This document shows positions 1,515 to 20,949 of a stretch of DNA of 64,000 nt, one piece after another. Within the stretch, counting starts at the first letter, position 1, and the number at the start of each line of letters is the position of its first letter. Below the pieces are notes generated by a model. The model made no database searches, had not been told where the DNA came from, and was given only the letters and a program-made list of their open reading frames with translations. The position numbers and the translations under genes were made by a program. This DNA comes from Candidatus Latescibacterota bacterium. GTDB taxonomy: Bacteria > Latescibacterota > UBA2968 > UBA8231. Location of the stretch: assembly GCA_965204725.1 (NCBI GenBank), contig OZ242005.1, positions 3,968,001 through 4,032,000 of the forward strand. The letters are read 5' to 3'.

Positions 1515-1515
1515 G

Positions 1516-4638: not shown

Positions 4639-4649
4639 GGCCGGTGCTC

Positions 4650-5816
4650 TCAGCGTTGGACGACCACGACCTTGGCGTCGTGGGCTAGATTGTAGTGCCC
4701 GAATACGATAAGTTCTTCGCCTGCTTCTACCCCTTCGGTAATCTCGATAAAGTCGTCGTTTTCGAGGCCGGTCTTGACGTAGCGCCATTGGGCTAGCCCG
4801 TCTTGGTGGATGAACACTAGCTTGCGGTCGTCGCGGGTTAGGAGCGCGTCGCGCGGTATGAGCAGCCGCTGCTGAAAGGCTTCGACGCCGATTTCGAGCC
4901 GGGCGAACATACCGGGTTTGATGCGCCGGTCGGGGTTGGCCACTTGGATCAAGATGCGGCAAGTTCCGCTTTCACTATCGACTACCGGACTGATGGCTTT
5001 GACCGCACCCACAAACGAGTCGTCGGGATACGCGTGCAACGCGATGGTTGCTTGGGCACCGACGTGTAGCAGGCGCAGTTCGCTTTCGAGGCTGCTGACT
5101 TCGAGCAGCAGCGGGTCGAGTGCCAAAAGCTGCATCAGGGACTGGCCTTGGGTGACCCAAGTGCCGAGGGTTACTTCCACTTCGGTAACAGTGCCGACAA
5201 AAGGTGCTGTAATAACTGCATTTTTGCGGTCGAGGTCGGCCTGCTTCAGGGCGAGTCGAGCGCGGGTTAGGCCCGTAGTGCTGGCGATCCATTCTTTGGG
5301 GGTGCCGCTGGCAAACAGCGATAGAGCTTCTACGTCGTTGATGTTGGTGGTGTCGGCTTTGGTCTTGATGAGGTCGCGTGCTTGGTGCCCGCGGTCCAAT
5401 TGGCCGCTCAACAAGGCTATGGAGGCGTATTCCCGTAGGGCGCGCGTCATCTGGTCCTTTGCCTGTAGGTACGCGATGGCATAGCGTTCCGCGTCTAGCT
5501 CCAAAATAGTATCTCCCTTGCTGACGAAGCGACCTTCCTCGACGTTGAGGCGGCGCACTTGGCCGGCTATTTGGGAGACGATAGCCGTCTCCATTTTGGC
5601 CTTGAAGACGCCTGTCGAGGTGATTTTCTGAACGAGGTCGCGGTGCTGGACGGTGTCTATGGCGACCGGAGTGTTGGGTGGTTCAAGTTCGGGGAGAGTG
5701 TCGAGGGATTCATCGCGGGGATTTTGCGATGGCGCGGAATCGCTGAAAATCGCAAATAATAGGGTGAGTAGCCCAAGCGCGAGAGCGATATATAGGAGTT
5801 TCTTTAGTGTCGTCAT
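4650..5816 (-). CDS. RND efflux periplasmic adaptor (membrane fusion protein)
   Basis: N-terminal TM, lipoyl-like halves (VEEGRFVSKGD; ITAPFVGTV), IKPGMFAR motif; directly upstream of RND genes. Confidence 0.93.
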   Translation of the reverse strand: MTTLKKLLYIALALGLLTLLFAIFSDSAPSQNPRDESLDTLPELEPPNTPVAIDTVQHRDLVQKITSTGVFKAKMETAIVSQIAGQVRRLNVEEGRFVSKGDTILELDAERYAIAYLQAKDQMTRALREYASIALLSGQLDRGHQARDLIKTKADTTNINDVEALSLFASGTPKEWIASTTGLTRARLALKQADLDRKNAVITAPFVGTVTEVEVTLGTWVTQGQSLMQLLALDPLLLEVSSLESELRLLHVGAQATIALHAYPDDSFVGAVKAISPVVDSESGTCRILIQVANPDRRIKPGMFARLEIGVEAFQQRLLIPRDALLTRDDRKLVFIHQDGLAQWRYVKTGLENDDFIEITEGVEAGEELIVFGHYNLAHDAKVVVVQR

Positions 5817-6871
5817 TTTGTAAGCTCGCGATCTTTGCCATGGACAAGATCAACGCTCAGTTGCGATCTGCTCAAGGTTTGAGAGTGAGCGGCTAGAACA
5901 TCTAGGGCCTTCCGTTCTTGGATGGCGATGGCGTGAAGCCGGGCCTGAATGCGCGGGATTAGCCTTGGCGTCTCCTTGACTACGCCTTTGAAGCACAGAT
6001 TTTTGGCGACAAACCAACTCTGAGAAATCGACTCGAATTCCCGGCCGAGAGCACTTAGGCCATCAAGGCCGCAGATCCGACTCGCATAGTGGAGAAAGGC
6101 ACCGTGTCCTTCTCGGTTCAGGGCGATCTCGAGGAACAGTTCAGTACATTGATTCAGGCGTGTTTTGAGAAGTTGCTTTTCGCATTCCGTCCATATTTCT
6201 ACGTCCTCGGCGAGCTGCTCAATCCCGGCCACGCCCGGTACGCAATTGGCCCGTATGCTGGTTGCAGACATACTGGCGATATTGCGTTGCAGAATGGCGA
6301 CTACATGGCGCAGACGCACCCTAGGCGGCTCGTCCGGTACGTCTAGCCAGAGCCAGTCAAAGCAGGGCTGGTCCGCGCCAGCAATAGCCCGCGTGTCCCA
6401 ACACGATAGAAAGAGGTCCAAGGGGATGTCTCGCGCCGAAGGCTGCCACGGCGAAGGATCTATCAAATGAACGGTCCCAGCCCCATCATCATACCCGGCG
6501 ACGATGCACTGATGGTCTGAGTGACGCTGGCGCGGATAGAACCCGGCTCCCGCTAGATGGAAGACGTCTAGATTGATGGATACAGGCGCATCTGCATCCA
6601 ATCGTTTTTTGACTTGGTTCCACGCCGCCCTACCATCATCAGAAGTCTCGTCGAATGGCTTAATGCCGAACCGCTGGATCATGGAAAAGAGGGGAGCTGG
6701 GCGACTCCTGATGTTGAACGATTCGCCTCTAAAGTAGAAAAAGTCCCAGTTGTAAAAAGCGGGCAGCGACGGTTCCCATTGGTAGTAGCGCAACAAGCTG
6801 TCGAGCATGACGTAGAGGCAGTTGTAGTGCCGATTAGTGCAGAAGGGAATACCGCTAATGCGCTTTTTCAC
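5813..6871 (-). CDS. BtrH-like protein (BtrH_N papain/C39-like fold plus DUF4872-like C-terminus), putative ACP-dependent acyltransferase or peptidase
   Basis: HYNCLY (Cys), HQCIVAGYDD (His), HLIDP (Asp) triad; C-terminal GVAGIEQLAE helix region. GTG 6871 overlaps upstream stop (GTGA); ORF track start is 6892. Confidence 0.75.
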   Translation of the reverse strand: MKKRISGIPFCTNRHYNCLYVMLDSLLRYYQWEPSLPAFYNWDFFYFRGESFNIRSRPAPLFSMIQRFGIKPFDETSDDGRAAWNQVKKRLDADAPVSINLDVFHLAGAGFYPRQRHSDHQCIVAGYDDGAGTVHLIDPSPWQPSARDIPLDLFLSCWDTRAIAGADQPCFDWLWLDVPDEPPRVRLRHVVAILQRNIASMSATSIRANCVPGVAGIEQLAEDVEIWTECEKQLLKTRLNQCTELFLEIALNREGHGAFLHYASRICGLDGLSALGREFESISQSWFVAKNLCFKGVVKETPRLIPRIQARLHAIAIQERKALDVLAAHSQTLSRSQLSVDLVHGKDRELTK

Positions 6872-7524
6872 AACGAACCTGCTTCTTGACACAAGGTCAA
6901 CGCGAATATGTGCATGGATGGATTATCCGGCATTACGAGATGCGATAGCAGCGGAGTTTCTTTCAATTCAATTACCTGATGCCAGATTCCTGCTTCAATA
7001 AGCGTCTCCTGCATCTGGTAGTCCTCGCCCGGCGGGGTTATGCCGAAGAGGAATACGTGGGGAGTGAGACTATCGGGAGAGATCAGTTGGCCCATAAATG
7101 CCTCGCGCTCTCCGTACTGAAGCCCTTTGTAATGCGAGGCGTCACTGAGCCCGAGAACTGCTTGAGTGCGGGAACCGTCCGGCGAGTGCAACAGGACGAT
7201 TTCGGCCGTGGCCCGCCAGTCGCATAGCCCCAGAACGTGGAGGGCGCGATAGCGTCCTATTGGCAGTGGGGTTTCTTGCACCTCGCAGGCGATGTTGTCG
7301 TGCGCTCCATCGCTTTTATCTGGAAAAACAAACGATGTGCCGTTGCAACGGACGGTCGCTCCCGACGCCGGGAGATCCTCCGCCCGAAGGATCGTCCCCA
7401 TCCCGTCGAGTCCGTCGGCGGCTGGGTCGCAGGAAGAGGCGATGCCGGCGTTGTTGAAATAAGGTGCTAGGTTCACAGTTACTTGACCATTAGATCGCAT
7501 ATCTGTTTCCGTTTTTCCACTCAA
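6868..7524 (-). CDS. Hypothetical protein (beta-sandwich-like module resembling accessory domains of glycosidases)
   Basis: Overlaps neighbours at both ends; motifs LAPYFNNAGI, DGLDG, FVFP, DNIAC, YRALHVLG; function not assignable. Confidence 0.6.
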   Translation of the reverse strand: MSGKTETDMRSNGQVTVNLAPYFNNAGIASSCDPAADGLDGMGTILRAEDLPASGATVRCNGTSFVFPDKSDGAHDNIACEVQETPLPIGRYRALHVLGLCDWRATAEIVLLHSPDGSRTQAVLGLSDASHYKGLQYGEREAFMGQLISPDSLTPHVFLFGITPPGEDYQMQETLIEAGIWHQVIELKETPLLSHLVMPDNPSMHIFALTLCQEAGSL

Positions 7525-7793
7525 GGCATAGGCGATCGGGCTGCCAACCGCTGTTCTATGTATGAGGTCAAGGTCCGAACTGAATCGAATAGGTCCACCC
7601 GCAGCTCTTCGTCCTCCACTTCAAACCCGAACTCTTCTTCAAGGGCAAAGACGATCTCTAACGCGGCAATGGAATCGGCGTCTAAACCCTCGCCAAATAG
7701 GGACTCGTCATCGGCGATGTCCTCGGGATTGATCTTGAGTTGGAGCCCTTGGACGAGGGCTTGTTTCACTCGTTGAGCTATATCGTCGCGCAT
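7521..7793 (-). CDS. Acyl carrier protein
   Basis: 90 aa, acidic, GLDADSIAALEIVFALEEEFGFEV with phosphopantetheine Ser in DSI. Confidence 0.93.
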   Translation of the reverse strand: MRDDIAQRVKQALVQGLQLKINPEDIADDESLFGEGLDADSIAALEIVFALEEEFGFEVEDEELRVDLFDSVRTLTSYIEQRLAARSPMP

Positions 7794-9685
7794 GGCTGCG
7801 CCTCTTCCTCGGCAAAGTAGTTGATGACCACCTCGATAGCCCGATGGACATCCGCTTCGTCTGCAATGGATACTGCGGGAAGGCCGAACGTCTGTTCCAA
7901 GCGATTCAGTTTGTCGCGCACCTCGGCCGCGGTCATGGGTCGCGGTTTAATAGAGGTTCGGCCATAGGCCGTGCGAATGTGCTTCGCTTGATTGCTCATG
8001 GCCAACAGGAGCGTCGGTGCTTGGCACAGGGCGCGAATGCCGTTGATGGTGTCTTGGATGTAGTCGTCAGTGTCCACGCTGTTGACCACCAATAGGCAGG
8101 CTTGGGGCTTGACGCCCATCAGGAACGCAAGGGTCGGCAGCGTATGGGTCTGCTGTTCCTCTACGTTATAGGGCACCGTGCCCGATTGAGTGCCGACTAA
8201 AATTAGGTCCGGCCGCTTGCGGTGGTTGATTTCCCGTATCTTGGCGTCGAGATAGAGCGCGTAGTAGTCTAGCGGCATCTCAATGGACGCCGCGTAGCCC
8301 ATGGGGAACGCGCATTCCATGCCAAAGAGGGCCGAGTGGTGTTCGGTGCCGATTTGCCCTATCTGGTAGCCTAGTTCCAGCAGCCGGCGGCGCAGGGCGA
8401 GTTGTAGGGTAAATTTACCTTGCTGTGAGCTGGTGCCTGTGACAGCTAAGACCGGCACATCCACTTGGGGCCAGTACTCGGCCGAACGGAGGGTTTGCCG
8501 TATTTCTTTGGAGGACAACGCTGGATAGTATAGCCGCAGGCCCTTGGCGTCAGCCTGTTCGTACAGACCGGCGTACCGCTCGTGCGGCAGGGCCAAGAGG
8601 CTGAATACATGGACGCCTTGGTCTATGGCGGTTTGAACGGCTTCGCGCAGCAGGTCTCTTTTGCGGATGCGGCTAAGTTCGTCCATATAGCCCAAAACGA
8701 GGGTATCGGCACCCCGTAGGGAGGCGGTCAGGCTGGGGGCAATCGGCAGGCCCGCTGGCGGCAGACCAATGGCCTCGCCCGCGTCTTGGCCAACCAAGCC
8801 CTTGCCGACCAGATCGCCGACCCCGACGATCTCAAAGCCGAGCAGGTCACGCCCGCGCACCAGCGAGTGCATCTCCTTGTTGTAGGGATAGAGGGCGGCT
8901 TTCTGAATGTGGGCGAACGAGTCATCAGCATGGGACAGAGAAGTGGTTTTGGGCACGGTGGTGCGGGCAGCTTCGGGTTGAGCATGCGTGCGGAGGATTT
9001 CGCGCACCTGTGCTAAGCCCACCTTGGGATGAGTTTGGCGGATGAGGGTGAGCAAGCCGGTGATGTGGGGCGCGGCAAAGCTGGTGCCCCTCAGCATGAC
9101 CTCGGGCGGCTCCAGCCAGCACAGCCGCTGGAGATCGCCCCAGGCCACGCACTCGATGGCGGCTCCTTGGCGATAGTAGTAATCGCACAGCCCCTGCAAT
9201 AGCCCCGCGCCCACGCCGATGACTTGGGGTAAGTGGGCCGGGTAGCTTTCGCGGCCTTCTTCGTGATCGGCGGCTACCATTAGAACGCCTTGGTCTGCGG
9301 CCTGTTGGCAGATGCGGGCCAAGGCGTCGCGCTGCGTTACTTCGGTGGTGCCCAAACTCAGGTTGATGATGTCTATACCTTGGTCTAAGGCCCATTCAAT
9401 GGCCTTGACTAGCAAGCGGTTGTCGGCTTGTAGCAATTCATCGAAGATGCGGACGCTGTAAAGATCCGCCTCGGATGCTTTGCGACGGATGATGCCGGCG
9501 CAGGCCGTGCCGTGGCCGGCGCAATCGGCGTGATCGGCACTTTGGCGGATCGCGCCATCTGGCCCGATAGTGAGGGCGACGCCACCGGCTATTGGGCCGA
9601 TTTTGGGGTGATTGGGCACGAGGCCGCTATCGACGATAGCGACTTTGACGCCGTGGCCGGTATGGTTCGCAAGGGAAAAGCTCAT
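7778..9685 (-). CDS. Subtilisin-like S8 peptidase fused to DUF1611/TIGR04066-like P-loop domain (peptide maturation protein)
   Basis: S8 triad VAIVDSG / GHGTACAG / GTSFAAP; C-terminal VLAVTGTSSQQGKFTLQL P-loop and LILVGTQSG; ATG 9685 overlaps upstream stop (ATGA); no signal peptide. Confidence 0.88.
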   Translation of the reverse strand: MSFSLANHTGHGVKVAIVDSGLVPNHPKIGPIAGGVALTIGPDGAIRQSADHADCAGHGTACAGIIRRKASEADLYSVRIFDELLQADNRLLVKAIEWALDQGIDIINLSLGTTEVTQRDALARICQQAADQGVLMVAADHEEGRESYPAHLPQVIGVGAGLLQGLCDYYYRQGAAIECVAWGDLQRLCWLEPPEVMLRGTSFAAPHITGLLTLIRQTHPKVGLAQVREILRTHAQPEAARTTVPKTTSLSHADDSFAHIQKAALYPYNKEMHSLVRGRDLLGFEIVGVGDLVGKGLVGQDAGEAIGLPPAGLPIAPSLTASLRGADTLVLGYMDELSRIRKRDLLREAVQTAIDQGVHVFSLLALPHERYAGLYEQADAKGLRLYYPALSSKEIRQTLRSAEYWPQVDVPVLAVTGTSSQQGKFTLQLALRRRLLELGYQIGQIGTEHHSALFGMECAFPMGYAASIEMPLDYYALYLDAKIREINHRKRPDLILVGTQSGTVPYNVEEQQTHTLPTLAFLMGVKPQACLLVVNSVDTDDYIQDTINGIRALCQAPTLLLAMSNQAKHIRTAYGRTSIKPRPMTAAEVRDKLNRLEQTFGLPAVSIADEADVHRAIEVVINYFAEEEAQPCATI

Positions 9686-10170
9686 GGGCCTGCCCCCGCG
9701 TCTGTGGCGACTGGGAATCTGGCCGCCTGCCAAGCTGGCCAACCGCCCGTCAGAACATAGACTTCACTGCGGATCGACTCTTTGACGAGCCGCTTGGCTA
9801 GTGTGTAGCTGCTCCGGCAACCGCCTCCTGAACAGTAAGTGATGACTCGGGTGTCAGCCGGGTAAGACGCCAGTGTTTGGCGCAAGCTATCCGCAGAAGC
9901 ATGGGAAGGCAGGTGCAATGCTCTAGGGATATGACCGTCCTCATAAGCGTGCGTTGAGCGTGCGTCCACAAACACTACGTCGCCTTGGTCGAAAGCCTGC
10001 TTGGCCACGGGCACGGCCAGCCGATGAACGCCCTGCATGGCCCCAAGAGTCACATCGGCCTCTAGTTCCGCTATAGAGAACTGCTTGGTATAGAACCAGA
10101 TCACCCATGCGCTGCCAGCCAGCACGACCAGCCAGAGGATCAGCCCCATTCTGAGTAGCAGGCGGCTCAT
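9682..10170 (-). CDS. Membrane-anchored rhodanese-like protein
   Basis: ATG 10170 with AGGAG RBS; N-terminal TM; FVDARS, YEDGHIPRA, YCSGGGC, LTGGWPAW. Confidence 0.88.
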   Translation of the reverse strand: MSRLLLRMGLILWLVVLAGSAWVIWFYTKQFSIAELEADVTLGAMQGVHRLAVPVAKQAFDQGDVVFVDARSTHAYEDGHIPRALHLPSHASADSLRQTLASYPADTRVITYCSGGGCRSSYTLAKRLVKESIRSEVYVLTGGWPAWQAARFPVATDAGAGP

Positions 10171-10181
10171 GCGGTTTGCTC

Positions 10182-11921
10182 CTAGGCAGCCTCTTGCTGG
10201 TGGTGAACAAACTGGGTGTAATAGCCCGGCTGTTGGCGCAGCACTTCCGGCGGCCCCTGCTCGACCACTTGACCGTTGGACAGGCAAATCACCTCATCCA
10301 CACCTTGTACCGCACTGAGCCGGTGGCTAATTAAGAGAATCGTTTGGTCGCGGTATAGGTGCTGGATGCGCTGGAAGAGGGCGGCCTCGCTTTCGGAGTC
10401 GAGTGCTGCGGTGGCTTCGTCCAAGATAAGCAGGTCCACTGGTTGCAGCAGGGTGCGAGCTAACGCAATGCGCTGGCACTGGCCGCCGGAAAGTTGGACG
10501 CCCTGTTCACCGATTTCCGCCTGCATGTCCAAGCCATTTAGCCCCACTTGCTCGCTCACCCGTTCGACTTCCGCTGGCTCGCACTTGAAGTTCCCGTAGA
10601 GGATGTTGTCTCCTACCGCATCGTTAAGTAGATGAACATGCTGACTGACTAAGCCGATGTGCGCTCTCAATTCGCGCAGGCTTATCTCTTCAAACGGCAC
10701 ACCGTCTATAAGGATGCGGCCTTGATCCGGCTGATAGAACCCACACAACATATTGGCTAGAGTTGTCTTGCCACTGCCGCTCATGCCGACTAAGGCGTAG
10801 CTTTTGCCCTTGACGAGCTTCAGGTTCACACCCTGCAAAATAGATTGGTCTCCGAAGCGGAAGTGAACATCTTGCAGTTCAATGGTGTGCTCATAGACGA
10901 AGGATTTGTGGCCGTTGTGCATCGCCTCTTGAGTGGGCAACTGCATGAATTCCAACACCCGTCGCATAGAGACCAAGCCCCGCACTAAGTCCATGTACAA
11001 ATCGTGTAGTCCGCTAACCGGACCAAACAAACGCGAAGTGTACTGAAGAAAGGCAATGAGAGTTCCGATCGTCATCGCGCCCTGCATTACTTGATAACTG
11101 CCCCAGCCCATGATGAATACTGGAGTTAGAGCCACTAGCCCCGACGAAATCGTGCGCATGGAAGCCGAGTATAGCACGTTGCGCATGGAGAATACGATCA
11201 GATCGTTAAGGGCCGAGCGAAAGCGATGCCTTTCATAGCTGTCGCTGTTGGAAAGTTGTATCAACGGGATGTGACTAAACCGCCCGATAACATAGCTAGA
11301 AAGTTTGGCCCCTTGTTGCTGAATGGATTCGACGACCCTTCTGATCTTGGGCTGAAAATAGAGCAGATTCGCCACAAATAAGGGGAGGACCACGATGGAA
11401 AGCAGAAAAAGGGTGACATCCAGCCAGCACAGGACGGCCACGAGACCTATCAAGGTCAGTACGCTATGTAGAAAACGCATGACACTTGCCGTCAACACCG
11501 ACTGGATTATGCCCACATCGCTGTTGAGGCGGAAGACGATGTCGCCGACGGTATGTCGATGGTGGAATCTGAGCGGCAAGTGCATGAGATGCTGGAACAG
11601 TTCGACGCGGATGTTCCGGACGATGCGGTTGCCGGCCCAAGCGTACAGGTAGTCAGAGGCGAAGGATAGGATCAAACGGGTGATGGTAATACCTAGTAGG
11701 ATGGCGAGGGCAACCAGCAGTGGGTAAAGCTGTTTGGCTGGCACAATTTTATCAATGACGGTTTTTAAAATGTAAGGAGGTGCTAGAGAACCGACTGTGA
11801 TACACAGTACACAGAACAGTACCACAATCCCTTGATACCAATAAGGAATTAGAAAATGCAGGAAAAAGCCGATAGTAAACCGGGCTGTTTTAGTTTTAGG
11901 CGTAGGCATGAGAGATCTCAA
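10182..11921 (-). CDS. ABC exporter, fused permease/ATPase (no C39 peptidase domain)
   Basis: Six-TM domain, Walker A GMSGSGKT, LSGGQ signature, LILDEAT, SHRL. Confidence 0.95.
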   Translation of the reverse strand: MRSLMPTPKTKTARFTIGFFLHFLIPYWYQGIVVLFCVLCITVGSLAPPYILKTVIDKIVPAKQLYPLLVALAILLGITITRLILSFASDYLYAWAGNRIVRNIRVELFQHLMHLPLRFHHRHTVGDIVFRLNSDVGIIQSVLTASVMRFLHSVLTLIGLVAVLCWLDVTLFLLSIVVLPLFVANLLYFQPKIRRVVESIQQQGAKLSSYVIGRFSHIPLIQLSNSDSYERHRFRSALNDLIVFSMRNVLYSASMRTISSGLVALTPVFIMGWGSYQVMQGAMTIGTLIAFLQYTSRLFGPVSGLHDLYMDLVRGLVSMRRVLEFMQLPTQEAMHNGHKSFVYEHTIELQDVHFRFGDQSILQGVNLKLVKGKSYALVGMSGSGKTTLANMLCGFYQPDQGRILIDGVPFEEISLRELRAHIGLVSQHVHLLNDAVGDNILYGNFKCEPAEVERVSEQVGLNGLDMQAEIGEQGVQLSGGQCQRIALARTLLQPVDLLILDEATAALDSESEAALFQRIQHLYRDQTILLISHRLSAVQGVDEVICLSNGQVVEQGPPEVLRQQPGYYTQFVHHQQEAA

Positions 11922-12706
11922 AGATCGGCTAAGATATGGCGGCCTTTTATAATGTCTAATAGGGACACGCCCTCCAGCGTTTTTAACGGCGAATCGGCGA
12001 AGCTGGCGGTCTTAATCTCAAGAGCCGGTAGGTGAATAGAGATGAGTTTCCAGAAAAAGAGTTGGGTGAATTGTTCTCGACCAACTAATGGGTAGTGGCA
12101 CTGGAGAATGGTCTGGCGTTCGTCAACGAGAAAAATCGCCGGCGTCCGCTCGAAGAGAGCCGCATAATCTTCCTCATAGTCCTGTATGGTTCCCACTTGG
12201 TATTTGAGCTTGAACGCCCGTGAAAATTGAGCAGCAGCCGATGGCACTGAGGACAGCGCATAGATGGGCAGTTGAGCTGGATTTTCTATATGGTCATAGA
12301 CATGTTGTAGAGTCTCTAATACTATTTCCAAGCATGGCTGACAGGAAGAGGGATTGAAGAGGACGACGATACAGCCTTGGGTTCCGGCGAAGTTGGTGTG
12401 CAGTGTGTCTTCTTTGACTTGAAATGGGATCGAGGGAAAAGACTGGCCAACCCATTGGCTAGCTTTGAAGGTGCTGATGGCGTAGGTGCGGTAATTCCGC
12501 ATATCTACGAGATAGATTTTGCCGAACCAAGCTACTACGGTAGTCAGGGCGACGAGTTGTAGTAAGTTGGTGGCGACCAACAGCTTCAGTAGTATTTTAT
12601 GTTGCATGGTAGCAACCGACGATTTGGGTGGCCCGGTCCCAGTGCTGGGACCGGACCGCTGCATGACCAAAGTATGGGCCTTGAAGTTAGAGGCCGATCC
12701 TAGCAC
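11918..12706 (-). CDS. Membrane-anchored thioredoxin-fold (AhpC/TSA/TlpA-like) protein
   Basis: Hydrophobic N-terminal segment, VVLFNPSSCQPC (CxxC), RTPAIFLVD cis-Pro region; true start may be ATG 12607 or 12664. Confidence 0.7.
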   Translation of the reverse strand: MLGSASNFKAHTLVMQRSGPSTGTGPPKSSVATMQHKILLKLLVATNLLQLVALTTVVAWFGKIYLVDMRNYRTYAISTFKASQWVGQSFPSIPFQVKEDTLHTNFAGTQGCIVVLFNPSSCQPCLEIVLETLQHVYDHIENPAQLPIYALSSVPSAAAQFSRAFKLKYQVGTIQDYEEDYAALFERTPAIFLVDERQTILQCHYPLVGREQFTQLFFWKLISIHLPALEIKTASFADSPLKTLEGVSLLDIIKGRHILADL

Positions 12707-12897
12707 TTATCGCTCGTTTTGGTTGCGGGAGGAGTGCAGTCATCCCAAATATCCCAGTAATCTATTACGCACTCGTACTCTTCCGTACAAGCGTCGAAAT
12801 ACACTAACTCCCAGTCGCCCCCGTGAGAGCCCTCACGCTCGTAGGCCTGAACCAAGGCGGTGCGCCTGTTTGGGGTTTTCTTGCTGAGTGTTTTCAT
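12700..12897 (-). CDS. Putative RiPP precursor peptide, 65 aa, CLI_3235-like leader
   Basis: ATG 12897 preceded by AAGGAG; MKTLSKKTPNRRTALVQAY followed by EREGSHGGDWELVYFDACTEEYECVIDYWDIWDDCTPPATKTSDKC; embedded in a protease/ACP/exporter operon. Confidence 0.8.
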   Translation of the reverse strand: MKTLSKKTPNRRTALVQAYEREGSHGGDWELVYFDACTEEYECVIDYWDIWDDCTPPATKTSDKC

Positions 12898-12969
12898 GAG
12901 ATTGCTCCTTAGTAAAGAGTGATGAATGATAGAACCAAGGCCCATAATACTGGTTCGTGATAGGATATC

Positions 12970-14130
12970 TTAGTTTATATCAAAGGACAGCGTATATGTC
13001 TCGACCGTGCCATTGGATATCTCCGCCCTTTCACTCGACGGTTCTCTCCATATATACAGATGCCCCTGCCAAGCGGCGACACTGTTCCAAGGGGCCATGT
13101 TGGACACGAGAGACTCTACCTTCGCTCTATCGAACGTATATGTCTCCATGTTAGACGAAGAGGTAAGATCGTAAAGTATCCACCATTGTGCATCTCTAGC
13201 CACTTGGTGAGAGACAAATAGATACCGATCGTCTATTAGGGTCATGTTTTTGAGCGTGGTCATCTCCAATCCATACATACCCTCAGACGAACCTCGCCCG
13301 ATGCTATGGTAGCGTTCAGGCAAGGAGACGAAGCCCTCTGGGCGCAGACCAAACTGCCGGATGATCTGTCCGGTGTCGGCGTCGATTTCCTTGACGAGGT
13401 AGTCGTTGGGGCCCAAGTAATACAGCCGATGCCGCGCTGGACTGTAGCGCACTTGGGCAAACGCGTTCATGCGGAAGGAGACAAACTGCTGTTCATCGGT
13501 GGACAGGGGGGTGCGATAGAGCGGTTCCCAAGTCGTGGGATCCAAACTCTGTATCTCCATGATCTTCATCGGGTTTGTTTTCAGCAGAAACACTTCGCCC
13601 GCCCGGCCGATTAAAAGCCGACTTCCCTTGAACGAACGCGTCCCATCTATGTACTGCCCTTGACGATCATAACGGACGATCTGGCCGAACGTCTTGTCAA
13701 GGATATATAGCCGGCCGTGTGAGTCTATGGCCATATTTCTAGGGGAACCATACTCGCCAGGGCCGCGTCCTTGCTGGCCAAAGGAGCGAATATAATGTCC
13801 ATCCGTGCGGCTAAACTCATGGGCTTGGTCACCGATGCTATCCGTGATCAGCAAGGTGCCCTCTGGCGAGAAGCTCAGCCAGCGTACACGTCCGATACCC
13901 GGGGAGTCCTCATCAAAGGCGAGTTCGATCTGCTGTTGAAAAATCACGTCGACCTCGCCGACATATTCAACGGGCGTTTGCGAAATGTTGGTCTCATCGA
14001 CTTCGCCGACTTGGTAGGCGGTGTACCACGCTTTGACGCTGTCGCGGATGTCGCTCCACAGTCCGGCGTCGGCTGCCGTGCTACCGAGGGCGACGAGGAA
14101 TGTGCAGATGTGAAAATTTCTGGCGTTCAT
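12970..14130 (-). CDS. Secreted 6-bladed beta-propeller (NHL-like) protein
   Basis: Signal peptide ending AADA; FGQQGRGPGEY motif; NHL-like repeats (MAIDSHGRLYILD, IVRYDRQGQYI). Confidence 0.8.
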   Translation of the reverse strand: MNARNFHICTFLVALGSTAADAGLWSDIRDSVKAWYTAYQVGEVDETNISQTPVEYVGEVDVIFQQQIELAFDEDSPGIGRVRWLSFSPEGTLLITDSIGDQAHEFSRTDGHYIRSFGQQGRGPGEYGSPRNMAIDSHGRLYILDKTFGQIVRYDRQGQYIDGTRSFKGSRLLIGRAGEVFLLKTNPMKIMEIQSLDPTTWEPLYRTPLSTDEQQFVSFRMNAFAQVRYSPARHRLYYLGPNDYLVKEIDADTGQIIRQFGLRPEGFVSLPERYHSIGRGSSEGMYGLEMTTLKNMTLIDDRYLFVSHQVARDAQWWILYDLTSSSNMETYTFDRAKVESLVSNMAPWNSVAAWQGHLYIWREPSSERAEISNGTVETYTLSFDIN

Positions 14131-14240
14131 AAGGTTTCGATCCTTTCGTTACTATAAAAATAGCAATCGTCGCGGTGCTTGTATATCGGGTGATCACCTG
14201 ATTTTTGGCTGATTCTTATCGGGTGATCACCTGATTTTTT
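14126..14240 (-). promoter_or_regulatory. Promoter/5'UTR copy 1 with two 18-bp palindromic operators (14185-14202, 14218-14235)
   Basis: ATCGGGTGATCACCTGAT twice with 33-bp period; on minus strand followed by TATACA-17bp-TATTTT (preceded by TG) and AAAGGA RBS. Confidence 0.75.
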
Positions 14241-14262
14241 AGCCAATCAGTACCGGCGAGCT

Positions 14263-14742
14263 TCAAGAGCCAGCCTCCGCGCCGGTTGCTGTAGGATACC
14301 CGGACTTCTTCCAAATCGGCCAGCCTCCCTTCAGGATGTAGATTTTCAGCTTGAACTCATCGGTTGATGCGCTGAAGAGGCGAGTGGTTAAGTTGCCGGT
14401 CTCGCAAACGGCTCGCTCGCAATAGACGATGATGCGAGCATCAGACGCTAAGACTTGGCGCAGGTGCTCAACAGGAGCATCATAAGGCAGATGCAACGCA
14501 CTGGGGATATGACCGGATTCGTATGCGGATGTTGAGCGCAAATCCACAAAGAGGGCGTCGCCGCGGTCAAGCTCCTGTTTGGCCTCGGCCGGGTCAATGC
14601 GGCTTGTTATAACTTCTGACGAGGGCTGACCTGAGCAGGACCAGAGGGCATACCCGCTGGCCAATGCGCCCAGCCATAGGAGGAAGCCGGCCTTGGTGAG
14701 GAGCCGCGGCCACGCTCGGCCTTTCTTGCTACGCTTTTTCAT
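14263..14742 (-). CDS. Second membrane-anchored rhodanese-like protein (paralog of 9682-10170)
   Basis: FVDLRS, YESGHIPSA, YCERAVC, LKGGWPIW; starts MKKRSKK at 14742 (TAAGGA RBS); in-frame upstream ATG at 14823. Confidence 0.82.
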   Translation of the reverse strand: MKKRSKKGRAWPRLLTKAGFLLWLGALASGYALWSCSGQPSSEVITSRIDPAEAKQELDRGDALFVDLRSTSAYESGHIPSALHLPYDAPVEHLRQVLASDARIIVYCERAVCETGNLTTRLFSASTDEFKLKIYILKGGWPIWKKSGYPTATGAEAGS

Positions 14743-14818
14743 GAGCTTGATCCTTAAAGAGGGAGGAGTGATGCAGGCGACGAGGAGCGTGCGGTCGTGA
14801 GAATGAGAATCGGTAGTG

Positions 14819-14930
14819 TTCATAAGGCTCCGGTCCTTTCGTTGTGATAAAAATAGCAATCGCCACGGTGCTTGTATATCGGGTGATCACCTGATTTTTG
14901 GCCGGTTCTTATCAGGTAAACACCTGAATT
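14819..14930 (-). promoter_or_regulatory. Promoter/5'UTR copy 2 with two palindromic operators (14878-14895, 14911-14928)
   Basis: Near-identical to 14126-14240; ATCGGGTGATCACCTGAT and ATCAGGTAAACACCTGAA with the same 33-bp period. Confidence 0.75.
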
Positions 14931-15125
14931 TTTCCGAGAAAACGCTGATATTGGCTTGTGGCTGTGTGCGCGTCAGGACATAGACCACGCCACGATAGGT
15001 GATGGTTTGGGTCGCCGCCGGAGTTTATCGCAGGCGAGCTGCATGGGAAGGGTACAGGGTGCGGGAGGGACTAAGACCTCGATGGCAGGAGGCCTAGGCG
15101 TAGTCTCAAATGACTGCTGCTGTGC

Positions 15126-15776
15126 TTAGAGCGGCTCGTCCTCCCCATCCATCAGCCCTTCTCGGATCGCGTACGCTGTCAACGCGGTCGCACTGTGCAA
15201 GTCGAGCTTATCCATTATGTGCTGGCGATGAGTGCTGATGGTCTTTTCACTCACGTGGAGTGCCTCGGCTATTTGCGCGGTTGTCTTTCCTTCGGCGACG
15301 CATCGCAGCACTATGCGCTCGCGTGCCGTCAGGGGAGAAGGTTTGCTGGGGATAGTAGCGTTATGCGCGTGACTGGGGACGATGGGGTTGGTCAAGTGCG
15401 AACTCACGTACTCGCGGCCGGCTTGGACCTCCCAGAGTGCTTCTACCAACTCGTTGATGAAATTCGTTTTCAGCAGGTACGCCGAGCCGCCTGCCTCGAA
15501 TAGGCCATCTACAAAACGCTTGTCCGCGTGTTCCGACAGCACGACGAACTTAATATGCGGATACGTGGCCCGTATCTGGCGCGTCACCTCGATGCCGCTC
15601 AGGTCGGGTAGTCCTATGTCCACGATCACAATGTCGGGTTGATAGGCGGTGATCAAGTCAATGGCCGTGCGACCATCGGCGGCCTCGCCGATTACCTCAA
15701 TCCCGCTTTCTCGTTCGAGATGCGCGTACATTACTTGGCGCACCATAATATGGTCTTCCACTAGAAAAATCTTCAT
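15126..15776 (-). CDS. NarL/LuxR-family response regulator
   Basis: REC domain (VEDH, DIGLPDLSG, YLLK) plus LuxR HTH (LTARE...GKTTAQIA...SEKTISTHR). Confidence 0.95.
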   Translation of the reverse strand: MKIFLVEDHIMVRQVMYAHLERESGIEVIGEAADGRTAIDLITAYQPDIVIVDIGLPDLSGIEVTRQIRATYPHIKFVVLSEHADKRFVDGLFEAGGSAYLLKTNFINELVEALWEVQAGREYVSSHLTNPIVPSHAHNATIPSKPSPLTARERIVLRCVAEGKTTAQIAEALHVSEKTISTHRQHIMDKLDLHSATALTAYAIREGLMDGEDEPL

Positions 15777-16846
15777 GAGGAATGGCCCTCCTCTTCAGCC
15801 AAGGTGCTCGGAAGCGTTATCAGACAGCGCGTACCTTTTCCGAGCGTCGATTCGATCGTCAAATGACCACCGATATGGAGCAGATGCTCTTGAATACTGA
15901 ACAGACCGAAGTGATTGCCTTGGATCATCTGGTCCAGATGCGCGACATTAAAGCCCGCGCCCGCGTCTTCTACCACCACCTGTAATTGGTCTCCGTCTCG
16001 ACGCAGGGAAACGGTGGCTTGGTCTGTGTTGGCGTGCCGAGCGACATTGACCAGCAACTCGCGAATGGACCTGTACACTAAGCCGCGTATGTCGTGGCTG
16101 TGTATCTCCCATTTATCCTCGGCTTCCACGCGCACGGTCAACCCGTCCTGGGAATGGACGAGGTCGCCAAGAGCCTCTAGGCCTGGTACGAACCCTATGC
16201 CGTAGAGCACGGGTGAACTGCTATCGAATGTCATGTCCCGGATGATGTGAGCCATCTCGTCAGTTTTTTTCTCCAATGCATCAATCAAGGCTTCGCGCTC
16301 TGTGTCGTCGGCCTGCCGCAGTGCAGCGATATTGACCTTCGACAGTACCAGCATCTGCCCGATTGAATCGTGGAGAGCACTCCCAAGGCTCACCCGCTCG
16401 TGCTCCCTGTCGATTAAGAGCTTGGCCGCCAGCGTCTGCAACTTCTGGATATGTCTCTCCATGCGCCTGTGCTGGCTGATTTTGCGAATAACGCCTTGAT
16501 AGTATATGGGGGTCCCGTCCGCGGCTCGCCAAATCGAGGCCGTTATTAGCGAATCGAAGTGGTGCCCGGTGCGGGTTCTAAACGTCGCGGTAAAGTCGCG
16601 CACGAACTCTTCCCGTTCAATCTCTTCCCGAAACCGCTCGTACTCGTCTAGACTCGCGCAGAGGCTGCGAATGTTCGAGCCGAGCAAGTCGGCGCGTTCG
16701 TAGGCAAACAGGACGTTGGCGGCCTTGTTGGCATCGACGATGGTCCCGTCCTGCTCGGCAATGACGAGAGCGTCGGGCGACGCTTCAAATAAGCCGCGAT
16801 AGAGGGCTGGGTCGCGTCTCAATTTCTTCAGCTTAGGCTTGCACAT
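15773..16846 (-). CDS. Cytoplasmic PAS sensor histidine kinase (HisKA_3/NarX-type)
   Basis: ATG 16846 with AAAAGGTGG RBS; PAS (LFEASPDA...ANKAA), H-box LHDSIGQ, ELLVNVARHA, EDAGAGF, FGLFSI; no TM segment. Confidence 0.9.
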   Translation of the reverse strand: MCKPKLKKLRRDPALYRGLFEASPDALVIAEQDGTIVDANKAANVLFAYERADLLGSNIRSLCASLDEYERFREEIEREEFVRDFTATFRTRTGHHFDSLITASIWRAADGTPIYYQGVIRKISQHRRMERHIQKLQTLAAKLLIDREHERVSLGSALHDSIGQMLVLSKVNIAALRQADDTEREALIDALEKKTDEMAHIIRDMTFDSSSPVLYGIGFVPGLEALGDLVHSQDGLTVRVEAEDKWEIHSHDIRGLVYRSIRELLVNVARHANTDQATVSLRRDGDQLQVVVEDAGAGFNVAHLDQMIQGNHFGLFSIQEHLLHIGGHLTIESTLGKGTRCLITLPSTLAEEEGHSS

Positions 16847-16904
16847 GGATCCACCTTTTATGAGTTCGGGTATCCTGCTGCTAGTCCCGCTAGCCGATTC
16901 AAAA

Positions 16905-17531
16905 CTATGTCGGTTCTTCTCCATCCGCCAACTTTTGCCCCGCGCCCCGCGCCGCCCCATAGCTTTCCCGCGTATCCACATCCACGAAAATACCCTCGTC
17001 CTCAACGGGCACTTCCACAATATGGGCTGCGTTTTTTGCTAAGACCGGCCGCGCCCCCCGGTCGCCCGTCAACGCGAGCAAGGCGTCTCGATAGGCCCGG
17101 CCGATGGCCACGGGATGGCCGCGTCGTCCAGCGCACACCGGCACGGCGATAGCGCGTCTGCTTTTTAACGCCCCAGCGACCTTTTCCATCGTTCCCCCAG
17201 CGACCTGCGGCATATCCCCCAGCGCAAACAAATACCCTTTCTCGCCGCCGGTCGCTTCCACGCCCACCCTGATAGAGGCGGCCATCCCCTCGGCAAAATT
17301 TGGATTGTGTACCAGCCGCACGGGATAGCGGCTCAACGTTTCCTCTACCGCTGCCCGCTGATGCCCGGTCACCACAACGACCTCCCCCAAACCCACCGCG
17401 CAGATTCGCTCCACCACGACTTGGAGGACGCATCGGCCCTCCCAAGGCAGCAGCAACTTATTGGCCCCCTCCATCCGTGCGGAACGCCCGGCCGCCAGTA
17501 CGATCCCGCTAAGGTCTGCGAATCCGGTCAT
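16905..17531 (-). CDS. mocA: Molybdenum cofactor cytidylyltransferase (MocA-like NTP transferase)
   Basis: LAAGRSARM, NKLLL, LGDMP, GHPV, GDRGAR, DVDT; divergent from cox-like operon. Confidence 0.85.
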   Translation of the reverse strand: MTGFADLSGIVLAAGRSARMEGANKLLLPWEGRCVLQVVVERICAVGLGEVVVVTGHQRAAVEETLSRYPVRLVHNPNFAEGMAASIRVGVEATGGEKGYLFALGDMPQVAGGTMEKVAGALKSRRAIAVPVCAGRRGHPVAIGRAYRDALLALTGDRGARPVLAKNAAHIVEVPVEDEGIFVDVDTRESYGAARGAGQKLADGEEPT

Positions 17532-17558
17532 CCCAAGTTGGCCCGGTCGGCTGTTTAA

Positions 17559-17588
17559 TTGACAAGGATAGACAAAATTTTTTAATAT
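17559..17588 (+). promoter_or_regulatory. Putative sigma70 promoter of the cox-like operon
   Basis: TTGACA at 17559-17564 and AT-rich TTTAATAT at 17581-17588, 45 nt upstream of coxG. Confidence 0.5.
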
Positions 17589-17632
17589 CCATCGCGTCAT
17601 CCGCTTCTGGCCCTCAACCACAGCATCAGCCC

Positions 17633-18554: not shown

Positions 18555-18563
18555 GAGGCCGCT

Positions 18564-20936: not shown

Positions 20937-20949
20937 GGAGAAGCCGACC

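What the first reader, a model, noticed from the sequence alone, without database searches (positions are those of the whole stretch)
12700..12897. Precursor peptide with CLI_3235-like leader and an atypical acidic, aromatic core
Seen: strong RBS, a basic 19-aa leader MKTLSKKTPNRRTALVQAY, then a 46-aa core with 13 Asp/Glu, 4 Cys, 3 Trp, 3 Tyr and an internal pseudo-repeat (YFDACT / IWDDCT). The leader resembles the MKKLxKK...T(V/I)EAY pattern I recall for CLI_3235 precursors, but those cores are CxC-rich, so the chemistry may be new. Inferred cleavage is after AY; a GG at core positions 7-8 is a possible second site.
Basis: partly seen in the sequence, partly recalled or inferred. Interest (0 to 1): 0.85.

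Follow-up and report, generated by a model that had tools for sequence, protein, structure and literature searches.

The report
Cysteine-rich precursor peptide, uncharted maturation system
This is a real gene for a 65-residue peptide with a removable leader and a variable, acidic, cysteine-rich body; it founds an undescribed peptide family that sits beside its own protease, carrier protein, export pumps and a matching binding protein in an uncultured bacterial phylum.

Summary
It belongs to an undescribed family: 45 distinct members of 62-82 aa collected here. They share a basic leader ending in hydrophobic-x-A-Y, then x-x-E-(G)-x-W, then a variable acidic core with two invariant Cys. It is not a CLI_3235 (TIGR04065) member: no hit for the peptide, for 54 leader-bearing peptides, or over cut-off in 168 genomes of the phylum, and no CcpM-type radical SAM in the genome. 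The surrounding system does share a parts list with CLI_3235 loci. It has a subtilase fused to a TIGR04066-like/DgcN-like DUF1611 domain, a carrier-protein gene (7793..7524) absent from the finding, and an ABC exporter. The cluster also holds an AziU2/AziU3-like pair with its Cys-His-Asp kept, membrane-anchored thioredoxin-like (CxPC) and rhodanese (CX4C) proteins, RND efflux genes and a signal-peptide NHL propeller. The propeller is predicted to bind the core (score 0.80, best control 0.00). The same leader motif heads other core classes beside S8-DUF1611-ACP genes across Candidatus Latescibacterota. The chemistry is unknown. My best model is leader removal after AY, ABC export, periplasmic Cys pairing, propeller binding and RND efflux, possibly with carrier-dependent acylation.

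The parts
12700..12897 (-). Precursor peptide gene, 65 aa + stop: leader about 1-19 (ends V-Q-A-Y), conserved E-x-E-G...W29, core Cys 37/43/54/65
12905..12910 (-). Shine-Dalgarno AAGGAG, 7 nt before the ATG
   Evidence: the same in all 13 other genes checked (12 family genes and the L064 ORF)
12630..12657 (-). 12-bp G+C-rich stem-loop without U tract, about 45 nt after the peptide stop and before the likely thioredoxin-like start
   Evidence: 110 nt fold at -41.5 kcal/mol, z -4.9; a strong hairpin (z <= -3.8) follows 8 of 13 family genes, with different sequences
12970..14130 (-). Signal-peptide 6-bladed NHL-type beta-propeller (DUF5128), 386 aa; predicted partner of the peptide core
14186..14234 (.). 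Two copies of the palindrome TCAGGTGATCACCCGA, 33 bp apart, 55-105 nt upstream of the propeller start: likely operator
14879..14927 (.). Second pair of the same palindrome, upstream of the second rhodanese gene
11918..12606 (-). Membrane-anchored thioredoxin-like protein with invariant C-(Q/K)-P-C; the listed ORF runs to GTG 12706, the likely start is ATG 12606
   Evidence: Redoxin, only E 0.079; motif invariant in 10 of 10
10182..11921 (-). ABC exporter (fused permease-ATPase, no C39 peptidase domain)
9682..10170 (-). Membrane-anchored rhodanese-domain protein with invariant active-site C-x4-C
7778..9685 (-). Subtilase (S8; Asp/His/Ser invariant) fused to a DUF1611 / TIGR04066-like / DgcN-like P-loop domain; 635 aa by the public gene call
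7521..7793 (-). Acyl/peptidyl carrier protein, 90 aa, LDADS serine motif; not mentioned in the finding
   Evidence: (PP-binding 40.8 bits, cut-off 20.8)
6868..7524 (-). AziU2/Azi28-like protein, 218 aa
   Evidence: E 1.2e-8 to PDB 8gs1_A and 1.4e-8 to 7wuw_A
5813..6892 (-). BtrH_N + DUF4872 papain-fold protein (AziU3/CtaG/BtrH class), candidate triad Cys25-His127-Asp145 invariant
   Evidence: profile to AziU3 7wuw_C, E 5.5e-4
3..5816 (-). HlyD-type adaptor (4650-5816) and two RND pump genes; syntenic with the cluster in related loci
14263..14859 (-). Second rhodanese-domain protein (C-x4-C)
15126..17020 (-). LuxR-type response regulator (15126-15776) and histidine kinase (15773-17020); syntenic in the closest loci. 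These two names are my own reading of the translations; no family search was run on them

Best explanation
The ORF is the structural gene of a ribosomal precursor peptide of an undescribed family centred on Candidatus Latescibacterota. Proposed route: (1) the basic leader, whose last shared element is hydrophobic-x-Ala-Tyr, is recognised and cut off in the cytoplasm by the subtilase half of the S8-DUF1611 fusion, most likely after Tyr19. (2) The DgcN-like DUF1611 half, the adjacent carrier protein and the AziU3/AziU2-like papain-fold pair add or move an acyl-type group. This is the least certain step. (3) The ABC exporter moves the peptide to the periplasm. (4) The membrane-anchored CxPC thioredoxin-like and CX4C rhodanese proteins pair its cysteines. 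(5) The cognate periplasmic NHL propeller binds the core, as immunity protein, chaperone or modifier. (6) The HlyD/RND pump expels it. The operon is probably controlled by the adjacent kinase/LuxR pair through paired palindromic operators. Shown here: gene, family, synteny, domain identities, motif conservation. Inferred: every biochemical step.
For: Gene and family. Leader conserved, core variable: 45 of 45 members have [AT]Y in the first 30 residues, 44 of 45 have a hydrophobic residue three before the Tyr, and the two central Cys are invariant; 24 of 45 have 4 Cys after the [AT]Y. The same leader motif heads other core classes beside S8-DUF1611: 58 ORFs in 40 of 78 loci, 64 matching start variants against 12 after shuffling, of 42,263. 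S8 Asp38/His77/Ser221 are invariant in 8 of 8. Its best curated family is QhpE (5.9e-43), the protease that cuts the QhpC leader before ABC export (PMC7876137, passages). The DUF1611 half matches TIGR04066 at 2e-33; its model (pLDDT 86.9) matches 2g0t, 2obn and the N-acetyltransferase DgcN 7xrj at TM 0.56-0.65. A carrier-protein hit is found in 67 of 78 loci and lies directly downstream in 57; 6 of the 11 without a hit end within 367 nt. AziU2/AziU3 homology and kept Cys/His/Asp; papain-like carrier-dependent ligases of this fold are described in PMC12865890 (passages). Cys handling: CxPC invariant in 10 of 10, CX4C invariant in 7 of 7. Rhodanese hits occur in 10 of 21 loci whose peptide has 2 or more core Cys and in 0 of 15 others (relatives are not independent). 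Propeller: present in 11 of 11 family loci. Its similarity is uncoupled from S8 similarity (r about 0) and highest between loci of the same core class. The complex model scores 0.80 against a best control of 0.00; that mark was reached by 58 of 80 solved complexes and 2 of 110 mismatched pairs; partner pLDDT is at least 51 and the runs agree in at least 18% of contacts. Regulation and transcript design.
Against: Nothing bears directly on expression or on the mature product. TIGR04065 and all other Pfam/NCBIfam models are silent on the peptide. TIGR04066 and QhpE scores are below their curated cut-offs (115.9 vs 200; 146.8 vs 165), and the carrier protein does not hit TIGR04069 at E<=1. The AziU2/AziU3-like pair is not universal: both are detected in 8 of 11 family loci, one of the two in 2, neither in 1, so the peptide family does not strictly need them. 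The Redoxin match of the CxPC protein is only E 0.079. Peptide-propeller co-variation depends on the identity measure: r = -0.03 (2803 of 5000 permutations reach it) with free end gaps, against r = 0.43, partial 0.44 (28 of 5000) with matches over the longer length. The complex score is a model's confidence and was obtained with my own alignments. Conservation runs past AY to Trp29, so the cut could lie further downstream.
Confidence: 0.6

Rival explanations
1. Same gene and family, but the only maturation is leader removal and disulfide formation, as for a class-II-like bacteriocin or a signal peptide. The carrier protein, DUF1611 domain and AziU-like pair would then serve something else, such as a co-produced small molecule or self-protection.
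For: No classical RiPP core-modifying enzyme was found among the cluster proteins scanned. Cys-handling proteins track Cys-rich cores. The AziU-like pair is missing or partial in 3 of 11 family loci.
Against: The carrier protein sits directly after S8-DUF1611 in 57 of 78 loci whatever the core class, and the CLI_3235 parts list also pairs TIGR04066 with a carrier-related protein. That argues the carrier works on the peptide pathway.
Confidence: 0.2
2. The peptide is not an exported product but the small subunit of a periplasmic two-chain protein with the propeller. It would be built like the gamma subunit of quinohaemoprotein amine dehydrogenase or the light chain of methylamine dehydrogenase, perhaps with a cross-link or cofactor made from the invariant Trp29 and Cys.
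For: The best curated match of the S8 half is QhpE. The QHNDH route is leader peptide, then S8 cut, then ABC export to the periplasm (PMC7876137). Peptide and propeller genes lie next to each other (11 of 11 family loci hold a propeller) and the interface is confidently predicted. Trp29 is invariant in the 15-row family alignment and the core is rich in Cys, Asp and Glu. A paralogous cluster carries MauE/DoxX.
Against: The cluster has no QhpD-type radical SAM, QhpG-type flavoprotein, MauG or haem subunit. The core is hypervariable between close relatives (about 40% identity where neighbouring genes keep 70-92%), which is unlike an enzyme subunit. An RND efflux system is syntenic. The propeller is 6-bladed NHL type; the QHNDH and MADH partners being 7-bladed is recalled, not checked.
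Confidence: 0.1
3. It is a divergent CLI_3235-family (TIGR04065) precursor matured by a radical SAM enzyme encoded elsewhere.
Against: TIGR04065 silent (0 of 54; 0 of 168 over cut-off). The best TIGR04068 match in the genome is 82.4 bits against a cut-off of 500 and lies about 64 kb away. The cores are not CxC-rich.
Confidence: 0.04
4. Chance ORF; the real gene is the overlapping plus-strand ORF 12519..12887.
For: A 122-aa TTG ORF overlaps it on the other strand.
Against: Conserved peptide family with ribosome sites, matching lengths and synteny.
Confidence: 0.01

Closest known systems
CLI_3235 bacteriocin system of Firmicutes (TIGR04065 precursor, TIGR04066, TIGR04068 CcpM radical SAM, TIGR04069 carrier-related protein, subtilase, ABC); example SacP23 of Paenibacillus polymyxa (PMC10731318, passages only)
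   Same: A short basic leader (19 aa predicted there) on a roughly 60-aa Cys-containing peptide. A subtilase, a TIGR04066-type DUF1611 protein, a small carrier(-related) protein and an ABC exporter in one locus.
   Different: The leader does not score with TIGR04065. There is no radical SAM maturase. Subtilase and DUF1611 are fused. The carrier is a generic PP-binding protein, not TIGR04069. The core is acidic with 2-7 spaced Cys, not CxC-rich. Extra parts here are propeller, rhodanese, CxPC protein, AziU2/U3-like pair and RND pump. The host is a Gram-negative-type uncultured phylum.
QHNDH gamma-subunit maturation (QhpC/QhpD/QhpE/QhpF/QhpG; PMC7876137, passages)
   Same: A leader-bearing small Cys/Trp/Asp/Glu-rich polypeptide, a cytoplasmic subtilisin-like leader protease (closest curated family of the S8 half), then ABC export to the periplasm where a larger partner binds it.
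   Different: No QhpD, QhpG or cytochrome subunit. The S8 score is below the QhpE cut-off. The core is hypervariable. An RND pump is present.
AziU3/AziU2 (PDB 7wuw, 8gs1) and the CtaG/BtrH/AsbE papain-like carrier-dependent ligases (PMC12865890, passages)
   Same: A two-gene pair homologous to AziU2 (E 1e-8) and AziU3 (profile E 5.5e-4). BtrH_N + DUF4872 architecture with Cys/His/Asp kept. A carrier-protein gene directly upstream.
   Different: Those enzymes act on small-molecule or carrier-bound intermediates of non-ribosomal pathways. Here they sit in a leader-peptide locus, and the substrate is unknown.
DgcN, DUF1611-family N-acetyltransferase (PDB 7xrj by entry title; its substrate D-glutamate and its use of acetyl-CoA are recalled)
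   Same: Fold of the C-terminal half of the fusion (TM 0.56-0.65 to 2g0t, 2obn, 7xrj) and a G-T-S-S-Q-Q-G-K-F-T P-loop-like motif, of which G, T, Q, G, K, F and T are invariant and the rest nearly so, in 36 of 36.
   Different: Only about 16% identity; fused to a protease; the partner is a carrier protein, not (as far as known) free CoA.
Small peptide genes beside 6-bladed propellers (DUF5128/BF3164-type) in Bacteroidota, e.g. NVEALA proteins (recalled, not tested beyond Pfam)
   Same: Signal-peptide 6-bladed propeller of the same Pfam family next to a small peptide gene.
   Different: The peptide has no Pfam match at E<=1. The function of the Bacteroidota pairs is also unknown.

Membership tests
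TIGR04065 (CLI_3235 bacteriocin precursor) | Leader scores at or above 26 bits with the 34-position model | tested here: not met
   No hit at E<=1 for the peptide; none in the genome at E<=10; 0 of 54 leader-bearing peptides at E<=10; 0 of 168 genomes of the phylum over cut-off, best 19.2 bits, at the noise level of the control genomes
CLI_3235 system | [quoted passage not shown] | tested here: not met
   No radical SAM match among the cluster proteins that were scanned. Best genome match 82.4 bits against cut-off 500, about 64 kb from the window
CLI_3235 system | TIGR04066 maturation protein | tested here: inconclusive
   Residues 281-644 match model positions 2-360 of 361 at E 2e-33, but 115.9 bits is below the cut-off of 200: a homologue, not the equivalog
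CLI_3235 system | TIGR04069 carrier-related protein | tested here: not met
   The window carrier protein has no TIGR04069 hit at E<=1. It matches generic ACP models (7e-14) and Pfam PP-binding above cut-off. A paralogous locus's carrier scores 13.7 bits against cut-off 70
CLI_3235 system | Subtilase and ABC exporter in the locus | tested here: met
   Peptidase_S8 1.2e-26; ABC_membrane + ABC_tran
RiPP-type precursor (general) | Conserved leader, variable core, next to the processing genes | tested here: met
RiPP-type precursor (general) | Post-translational modification of the core | not testable with these tools
   Needs mass spectrometry of the product
AziU3/AziU2 pair | Sequence homology of both partners, adjacent genes | tested here: met
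   AziU2/Azi28 E 1.2e-8 to 1.4e-8; AziU3 with an 8-row profile E 5.5e-4; the two genes overlap at 6868-6892
AziU3/AziU2 pair | Aziridine formation by sulfate elimination | not testable with these tools
   No sulfotransferase match among the cluster proteins that were scanned. Activity as described in a reference cited in PMC12865890; that paper was not read
QhpE (NF049966) | Score at or above 165 bits, with QhpC/QhpD/QhpG neighbours | tested here: not met
   146.8 bits. No radical SAM or flavoprotein match among the cluster proteins that were scanned
Pfam NVEALA or any other Pfam peptide family | Pfam match | tested here: not met
   0 families at E<=1

The most novel reading that the evidence does not exclude
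The S8-DUF1611-carrier module is the hub of a new, phylum-wide class of leader-guided peptide natural products. In it a ribosomal peptide is handed to thiotemplate-style chemistry: a DgcN-like acyltransferase domain, a dedicated carrier protein and, in this cluster, an AziU3/AziU2-like papain-fold enzyme. The product would be an acylated or cyclised, disulfide-locked peptide, each variant with its own cognate propeller partner. That would be a hybrid of RiPP and carrier-protein logic, using enzymes never seen on ribosomal peptides.
Probability: 0.27. Interest if true: 0.85.

Novelty: new variant of a known kind. Interest (0 to 1): 0.68.

Why it matters
Candidatus Latescibacterota has no cultured member that I know of (recalled). 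Its genomes carry up to seven places per genome that match this S8-DUF1611 protein. The sources that name these proteins at all call them 'S8 family serine peptidase', 'DUF1611 domain-containing protein' or 'epimerase/dehydratase family protein'. This work defines the leader motif, the family of this peptide, at least five further core classes, and a conserved protease-DUF1611-carrier module. Together these give a direct handle for mining and for heterologous expression. They also bear on the never-characterised TIGR04066/TIGR04069 pair of the Firmicute CLI_3235 systems. A papain-fold AziU3/CtaG-type enzyme acting on a ribosomal peptide would be new enzymology. The peptide-propeller pairs are a testable case of a variable ligand with a co-varying binder.

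Tried and rejected
1. Peptide-based scans of genome contigs and metagenome contigs found no relative; relatives were then found through the S8-DUF1611 neighbour.
3. No RNA holder was listed for the locus. Contigs of four runs laid on 4600-17100 show the same locus nearly unchanged in other runs but cannot speak to expression.
4. The ESM Atlas gave no usable hit for the peptide.
5. PDB sequence search of the BtrH-like protein alone found nothing below E 0.24; only a profile reached AziU3.
6. PDB sequence search of the DUF1611 half gave only 2g0t at E 0.023; the fold search was needed.
7. The propeller fold search gave generic NHL propellers (Thin, Brat, TRIM2), a Bacteroides exported protein 4raa, PAL and virginiamycin B lyase. 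None singles out a function.
8. The first peptide-propeller correlation (identity with free end gaps) was null. It is reported beside the positive second measure.
9. The sigma-70 promoter scan found 0 sites in 12300-15000.
10. Literature: 'DUF1611'+'RiPP' 0 papers; 'DUF1611' 2 unrelated papers; 'DgcN' with two other terms 0; 'NVEALA'+'beta-propeller' 0; TIGR04065/66/68/69 terms only annotation-level mentions; 'Latescibacterota'+'RiPP' 18 papers, and the one I opened (passages) lists only antiSMASH classes. So I found no description of this family in that library; subscription journals are not covered.
11. Considered and dropped: the rhodanese as a CX5R phosphatase-type loop, because the Arg is not conserved.
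Full report
**1. What is there**

A script confirms the counts:
- Residues 1-19 are basic (net +5).
- Residues 20-65 carry 7 Asp + 6 Glu, Cys at 37, 43, 54 and 65, 3 Trp and 3 Tyr (net -10).

AAGGAG lies 7 nt before the ATG. An in-frame upstream ATG (12945) would give 81 aa, but every homologue begins at the MK.L.KK methionine.

**2. It is a gene, and a member of a family**

- A search of 5.8 billion clustered proteins found three homologues besides itself: 70, 62 and 62 aa, at E 2e-23, 4e-15 and 8e-13. Leader, YEREGSHGGDW and the C-terminal CV[IV]D.WD.WDDCTP are invariant in them; the stretch between is free.
- Scanning the 168 species genomes of the same phylum with the large neighbouring gene gave many loci. 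I fetched 20 of them at about 19 kb each where the contig allowed, three being shorter. In these, a family profile picked 12 further small ORFs in 10 loci at E <= 1.2e-5. One search checked 13 genes: these 12 plus the weaker, different-class ORF of L064. All 13 have a Shine-Dalgarno site, and 12 start with ATG and 1 with GTG.
- A profile of 15 members, run against 1.84 billion representatives, found 36 proteins at E <= 1e-3. Of these, 34 are 62-82 aa and matched end to end; 2 are long proteins of about 1,880 aa hit in a short stretch, which I set aside.
- Merged and de-duplicated, this gives 45 distinct members.

Features of the 45:
- All have [AT]-Y within the first 30 residues (42 have A-Y).
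- 44 have V/I/L/M/A three residues before the Tyr.
- The pattern is M-x-x-L-x-K-K-x-P-x-R-R-...-(V/I)-x-A-Y-x-x-E-(G)-x-W.
- A variable acidic stretch follows, with ...G-C...(Y/W)-x-C-x(6-10)-C-x-(P/G)-G... and often a last Cys at the C-terminus.
- 24 of 45 have four Cys after the [AT]Y.

The window peptide belongs to a sub-type with C-x-x-(D/E/Q)-x-W-(D/E)-x-W-(D/N)-x-C. By my reading of the printed sequences, this sub-type is also seen in P0003-5, P0011, P0014, P0016, P0024 and the L056 peptide.

**3. Not CLI_3235 by the family's own test**

TIGR04065 (34 positions, cut-off 26 bits) gives nothing:
- nothing for the peptide at E <= 1;
- nothing in the whole genome at E <= 10;
- nothing for 54 diverse leader-bearing peptides at E <= 10;
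- no match over cut-off in 168 genomes. The best is 19.2 bits, and control genomes give similar noise.

The genome's best match to the CcpM-type radical SAM model TIGR04068 is 82.4 bits against a cut-off of 500, about 64 kb outside the window. Pfam is silent on the peptide.

**4. The neighbourhood (all on the minus strand)**

In order of transcription:
- a histidine kinase and a LuxR-type regulator (named from my reading of the translations; no family search was run on them);
- a rhodanese;
- a signal-peptide 6-bladed propeller (DUF5128);
- the peptide;
- a membrane-anchored thioredoxin-like protein;
- an ABC exporter without a C39 domain;
- a membrane-anchored rhodanese;
- a subtilase fused to DUF1611;
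- a 90-aa ORF absent from the finding (7793..7524), which is a carrier protein with an LDADS serine motif (ACP models to 7e-14; Pfam PP-binding 40.8 bits, cut-off 20.8);
- a 218-aa protein without any family;
- a BtrH_N + DUF4872 protein;
- a HlyD adaptor and two RND pumps.

The order is kept in related loci.

Details of the parts:
- The 218-aa protein is a homologue of AziU2/Azi28 (PDB 7wuw_A and 8gs1_A, E about 1e-8).
- A profile of the BtrH-like protein reaches AziU3 (7wuw_C, E 5.5e-4).
- Cys18, Cys25, His124, His127, Asp135, Asp136 and Asp145 are invariant in 8 of 8. Cys25/His127/Asp145 are spaced much like the Cys11/His128/Asp144 triad that PMC12865890 reports for the papain-like, carrier-dependent ligase CtaG. 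That paper names AziU2/U3, BtrH and AsbE as the same fold (passages).
- The S8 half keeps Asp38/His77/Ser221. Its best curated family is QhpE (5.9e-43, below cut-off).
- The DUF1611 half matches TIGR04066 over its whole length (2e-33, below cut-off). It carries a G-T-S-S-Q-Q-G-K-F-T loop, of which G, T, Q, G, K, F and T are invariant and the others nearly so, in 36 of 36. It folds with pLDDT 86.9 onto TM0796, Ava_3511 and the N-acetyltransferase DgcN (TM 0.56-0.65).

**5. A wider system**

Record titles of 78 related loci name Candidatus Latescibacterota MAGs, with a few labelled Gemmatimonadota, KSB1 or otherwise.

In the 78 loci:
- The carrier protein is detected in 67 and lies directly downstream of the fusion in 57. 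Of the 11 without a hit, 6 end within 367 nt.
- The AziU2/AziU3-like pair is found in 15, the propeller in 15, and a rhodanese in 15.

A simple leader expression (M..L.K...hydrophobic-x-[AST]-Y..[ED]) matches 58 small ORFs in 40 of the 78 loci. That is 64 start variants against 12 after shuffling, of 42,263. By my reading of that listing they fall into other core classes:
- hydrophobic Gly/Ala-rich;
- about 130-aa Ser/Thr/Asp-rich;
- Cys-rich with '...AGDC'-type motifs;
- and others.

So the leader goes with the S8-DUF1611-carrier module, and the core and the accessory genes vary. The P. polymyxa CLI_3235 locus lists the same kinds of parts as separate genes, plus the radical SAM (PMC10731318, Table 3 as quoted in passages).

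At least 368 clusters of such proteins exist. Of the top 120, 119 carry both Pfam domains. Sources name them only generically.

**6. How it probably works**

*Leader removal.* The only motif shared by all core classes ends in hydrophobic-x-Ala-Tyr. This fits the hydrophobic S4 and S1 pockets of subtilisins (textbook knowledge; an inference). The S8 half has no signal peptide. QhpE is a precedent for cytoplasmic leader removal followed by ABC export (PMC7876137). Conservation continues to Trp29, so a later cut is possible.

*Cysteine handling.*
- The thioredoxin-like protein has an N-terminal hydrophobic anchor (by eye) and an invariant C-(Q/K)-P-C in 10 of 10.
- Both rhodaneses have an invariant C-x4-C in 7 of 7.
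- Among 36 loci with a same-strand leader ORF, rhodanese hits occur in 10 of 21 whose core has two or more Cys and in 0 of 15 others. Relatives are not independent, and the thioredoxin-like query is too divergent to count.

*Propeller.*
- It is present in all 11 family loci.
- Between the closest clusters it is only 37-47% identical by tblastn (42-52% by global alignment), while their other genes keep about 70-93% (the thioredoxin-like protein of L054 is lower, 49%).
- It is 62-65% identical to that of L056, whose cluster is otherwise more distant and whose peptide shares the D-W-x-x-W motif.
- Propeller identity does not follow S8 identity (r about 0).
- Its correlation with core identity is nil with one measure (r -0.03; 2803 of 5000 permutations reach it) and positive with a stricter one (r 0.43, partial 0.44; 28 of 5000). 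I rate this as suggestive only.

*Predicted complex.* The complex model of propeller 24-386 with peptide 20-65 supports binding:
- median score 0.80, best control 0.00;
- partner pLDDT at least 51, and runs agreeing in at least 18% of contacts;
- the mark was reached by 58 of 80 solved complexes and 2 of 110 mismatched pairs, and these counts hold only roughly with my own alignments;
- contacts involve peptide residues 28-36, 39, 41-49, 51, 53, 56-57 and 62.

The propeller model (pLDDT 91.2) is a generic NHL fold.

*Carrier-dependent step.* The carrier is almost always glued to the DgcN-like domain, and here it is followed by a papain-fold pair of the carrier-dependent ligase class. This argues for acyl-type chemistry on the peptide. 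Nothing shows it, and both AziU-like partners are detected in only 8 of the 11 family loci.

*Expression design.*
- A 12-bp G+C-rich hairpin follows the stop (12630-12657).
- Strong hairpins of unrelated sequence follow 8 of 13 family genes (z <= -3.8).
- Two pairs of the palindrome TCAGGTGATCACCCGA, 33 bp apart, lie upstream of the propeller-peptide unit and of the second rhodanese. They give 8 matches on both strands, against a mean of 0.88 in shuffles, with 0 of 100 shuffles reaching 8.
- Paired copies recur in the four closest loci, in L055 directly upstream of the peptide gene.

**7. Limits**

- No RNA run was listed, and laid contigs only show the locus in other runs.
- DgcN's substrate, the 7-bladed partners of QHNDH and MADH, NVEALA-propeller pairs in Bacteroidota, the lack of cultured Latescibacterota and subtilisin pocket preferences are recalled, not tested here.
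- Papers were read as passages only. The AziU3/U2 paper was seen only as a citation.

**8. Verdict**

The precursor reading is supported, CLI_3235 membership is refuted, and system-level kinship is found. It is a new variant of a known kind: a leader-guided peptide with protease and exporter. It has an unusual and uncharacterised enzyme set and a cognate propeller, in an uncultured phylum.

Noticed in passing
window 7521-7793 (-): A 90-aa carrier-protein gene between the S8-DUF1611 fusion and the AziU2-like gene. It overlaps both neighbours by a few bases and is easy to miss.
   Followed up: yes
L081-L143 (e.g. L081:645-884, L089:6149-6559, L111:11920-12147, L118:6691-7095, L121:7781-8140): At least five other peptide classes carry the same leader motif next to S8-DUF1611-carrier genes: hydrophobic Gly/Ala-rich, about 130-aa Ser/Thr/Asp-rich without Cys, and Cys-rich acidic with '...AGDC'-type motifs.
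   Followed up: partly
The genome search: G074, G076, G080, G086, G089, G090 (36-38% identity matches); also G073, G074, G081, G089: Distant S8-DUF1611 paralogues in several genomes each show one in-frame TGA, and another group one in-frame TAG, at full-length coverage. Recurrence across species suggests either two adjacent in-frame genes or a recoded codon (selenocysteine?). The rhodaneses here resemble a '(seleno)protein' family.
   Followed up: no
L052 / L071 (G131:C1 about 1208000-1229000): An orthologous cluster (S8-DUF1611 84% identical) looks decayed: the ABC match covers only 331 residues, there are no thioredoxin-like or rhodanese hits, and the only leader-like ORF is a 40-aa fragment.
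   Followed up: partly
L051 (G138) 11319-14570; L060 (G164) 11751-17792: Some loci carry two peptide-propeller pairs in tandem. In L060 each pair has its own LuxR-type gene.
   Followed up: partly
L063 (G089:C1:832000-851000): A paralogous S8-DUF1611-carrier cluster holds TPR, AhpC/TSA-redoxin, Yip1, GT28-like and MauE/DoxX genes and a second ABC system, instead of propeller, rhodanese and AziU-like genes.
   Followed up: partly
G000:C1:4843040-4844281 (-) and G000:C1:3754276-3754911 (+): The same genome has two partial S8-DUF1611 matches elsewhere (residues 24-439 at 54%; residues 436-648 at 64%), possibly split or truncated copies.
   Followed up: no
window 14186-14234 and 14879-14927: Four copies of a 16-bp palindrome in two pairs spaced 33 bp apart. 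They are the only such sites in the 64-kb window.
   Followed up: partly
window 18090-21765 (+): Three ORFs that by my reading of the translations look like a CoxS/CoxL/CoxM-type molybdenum hydroxylase set (small 2Fe-2S, large, FAD-binding subunits), preceded on the other strand by a MobA-like gene (16905-17621). Not run against any family library.
   Followed up: no
The locus is held nearly complete (share of sampled words 0.99-1.00) by 7 runs of 3 coded studies, one of them labelled sponge metagenome; the further sponge-metagenome rows hold only 0.13-0.35. One run may be the source of the assembly.
   Followed up: no
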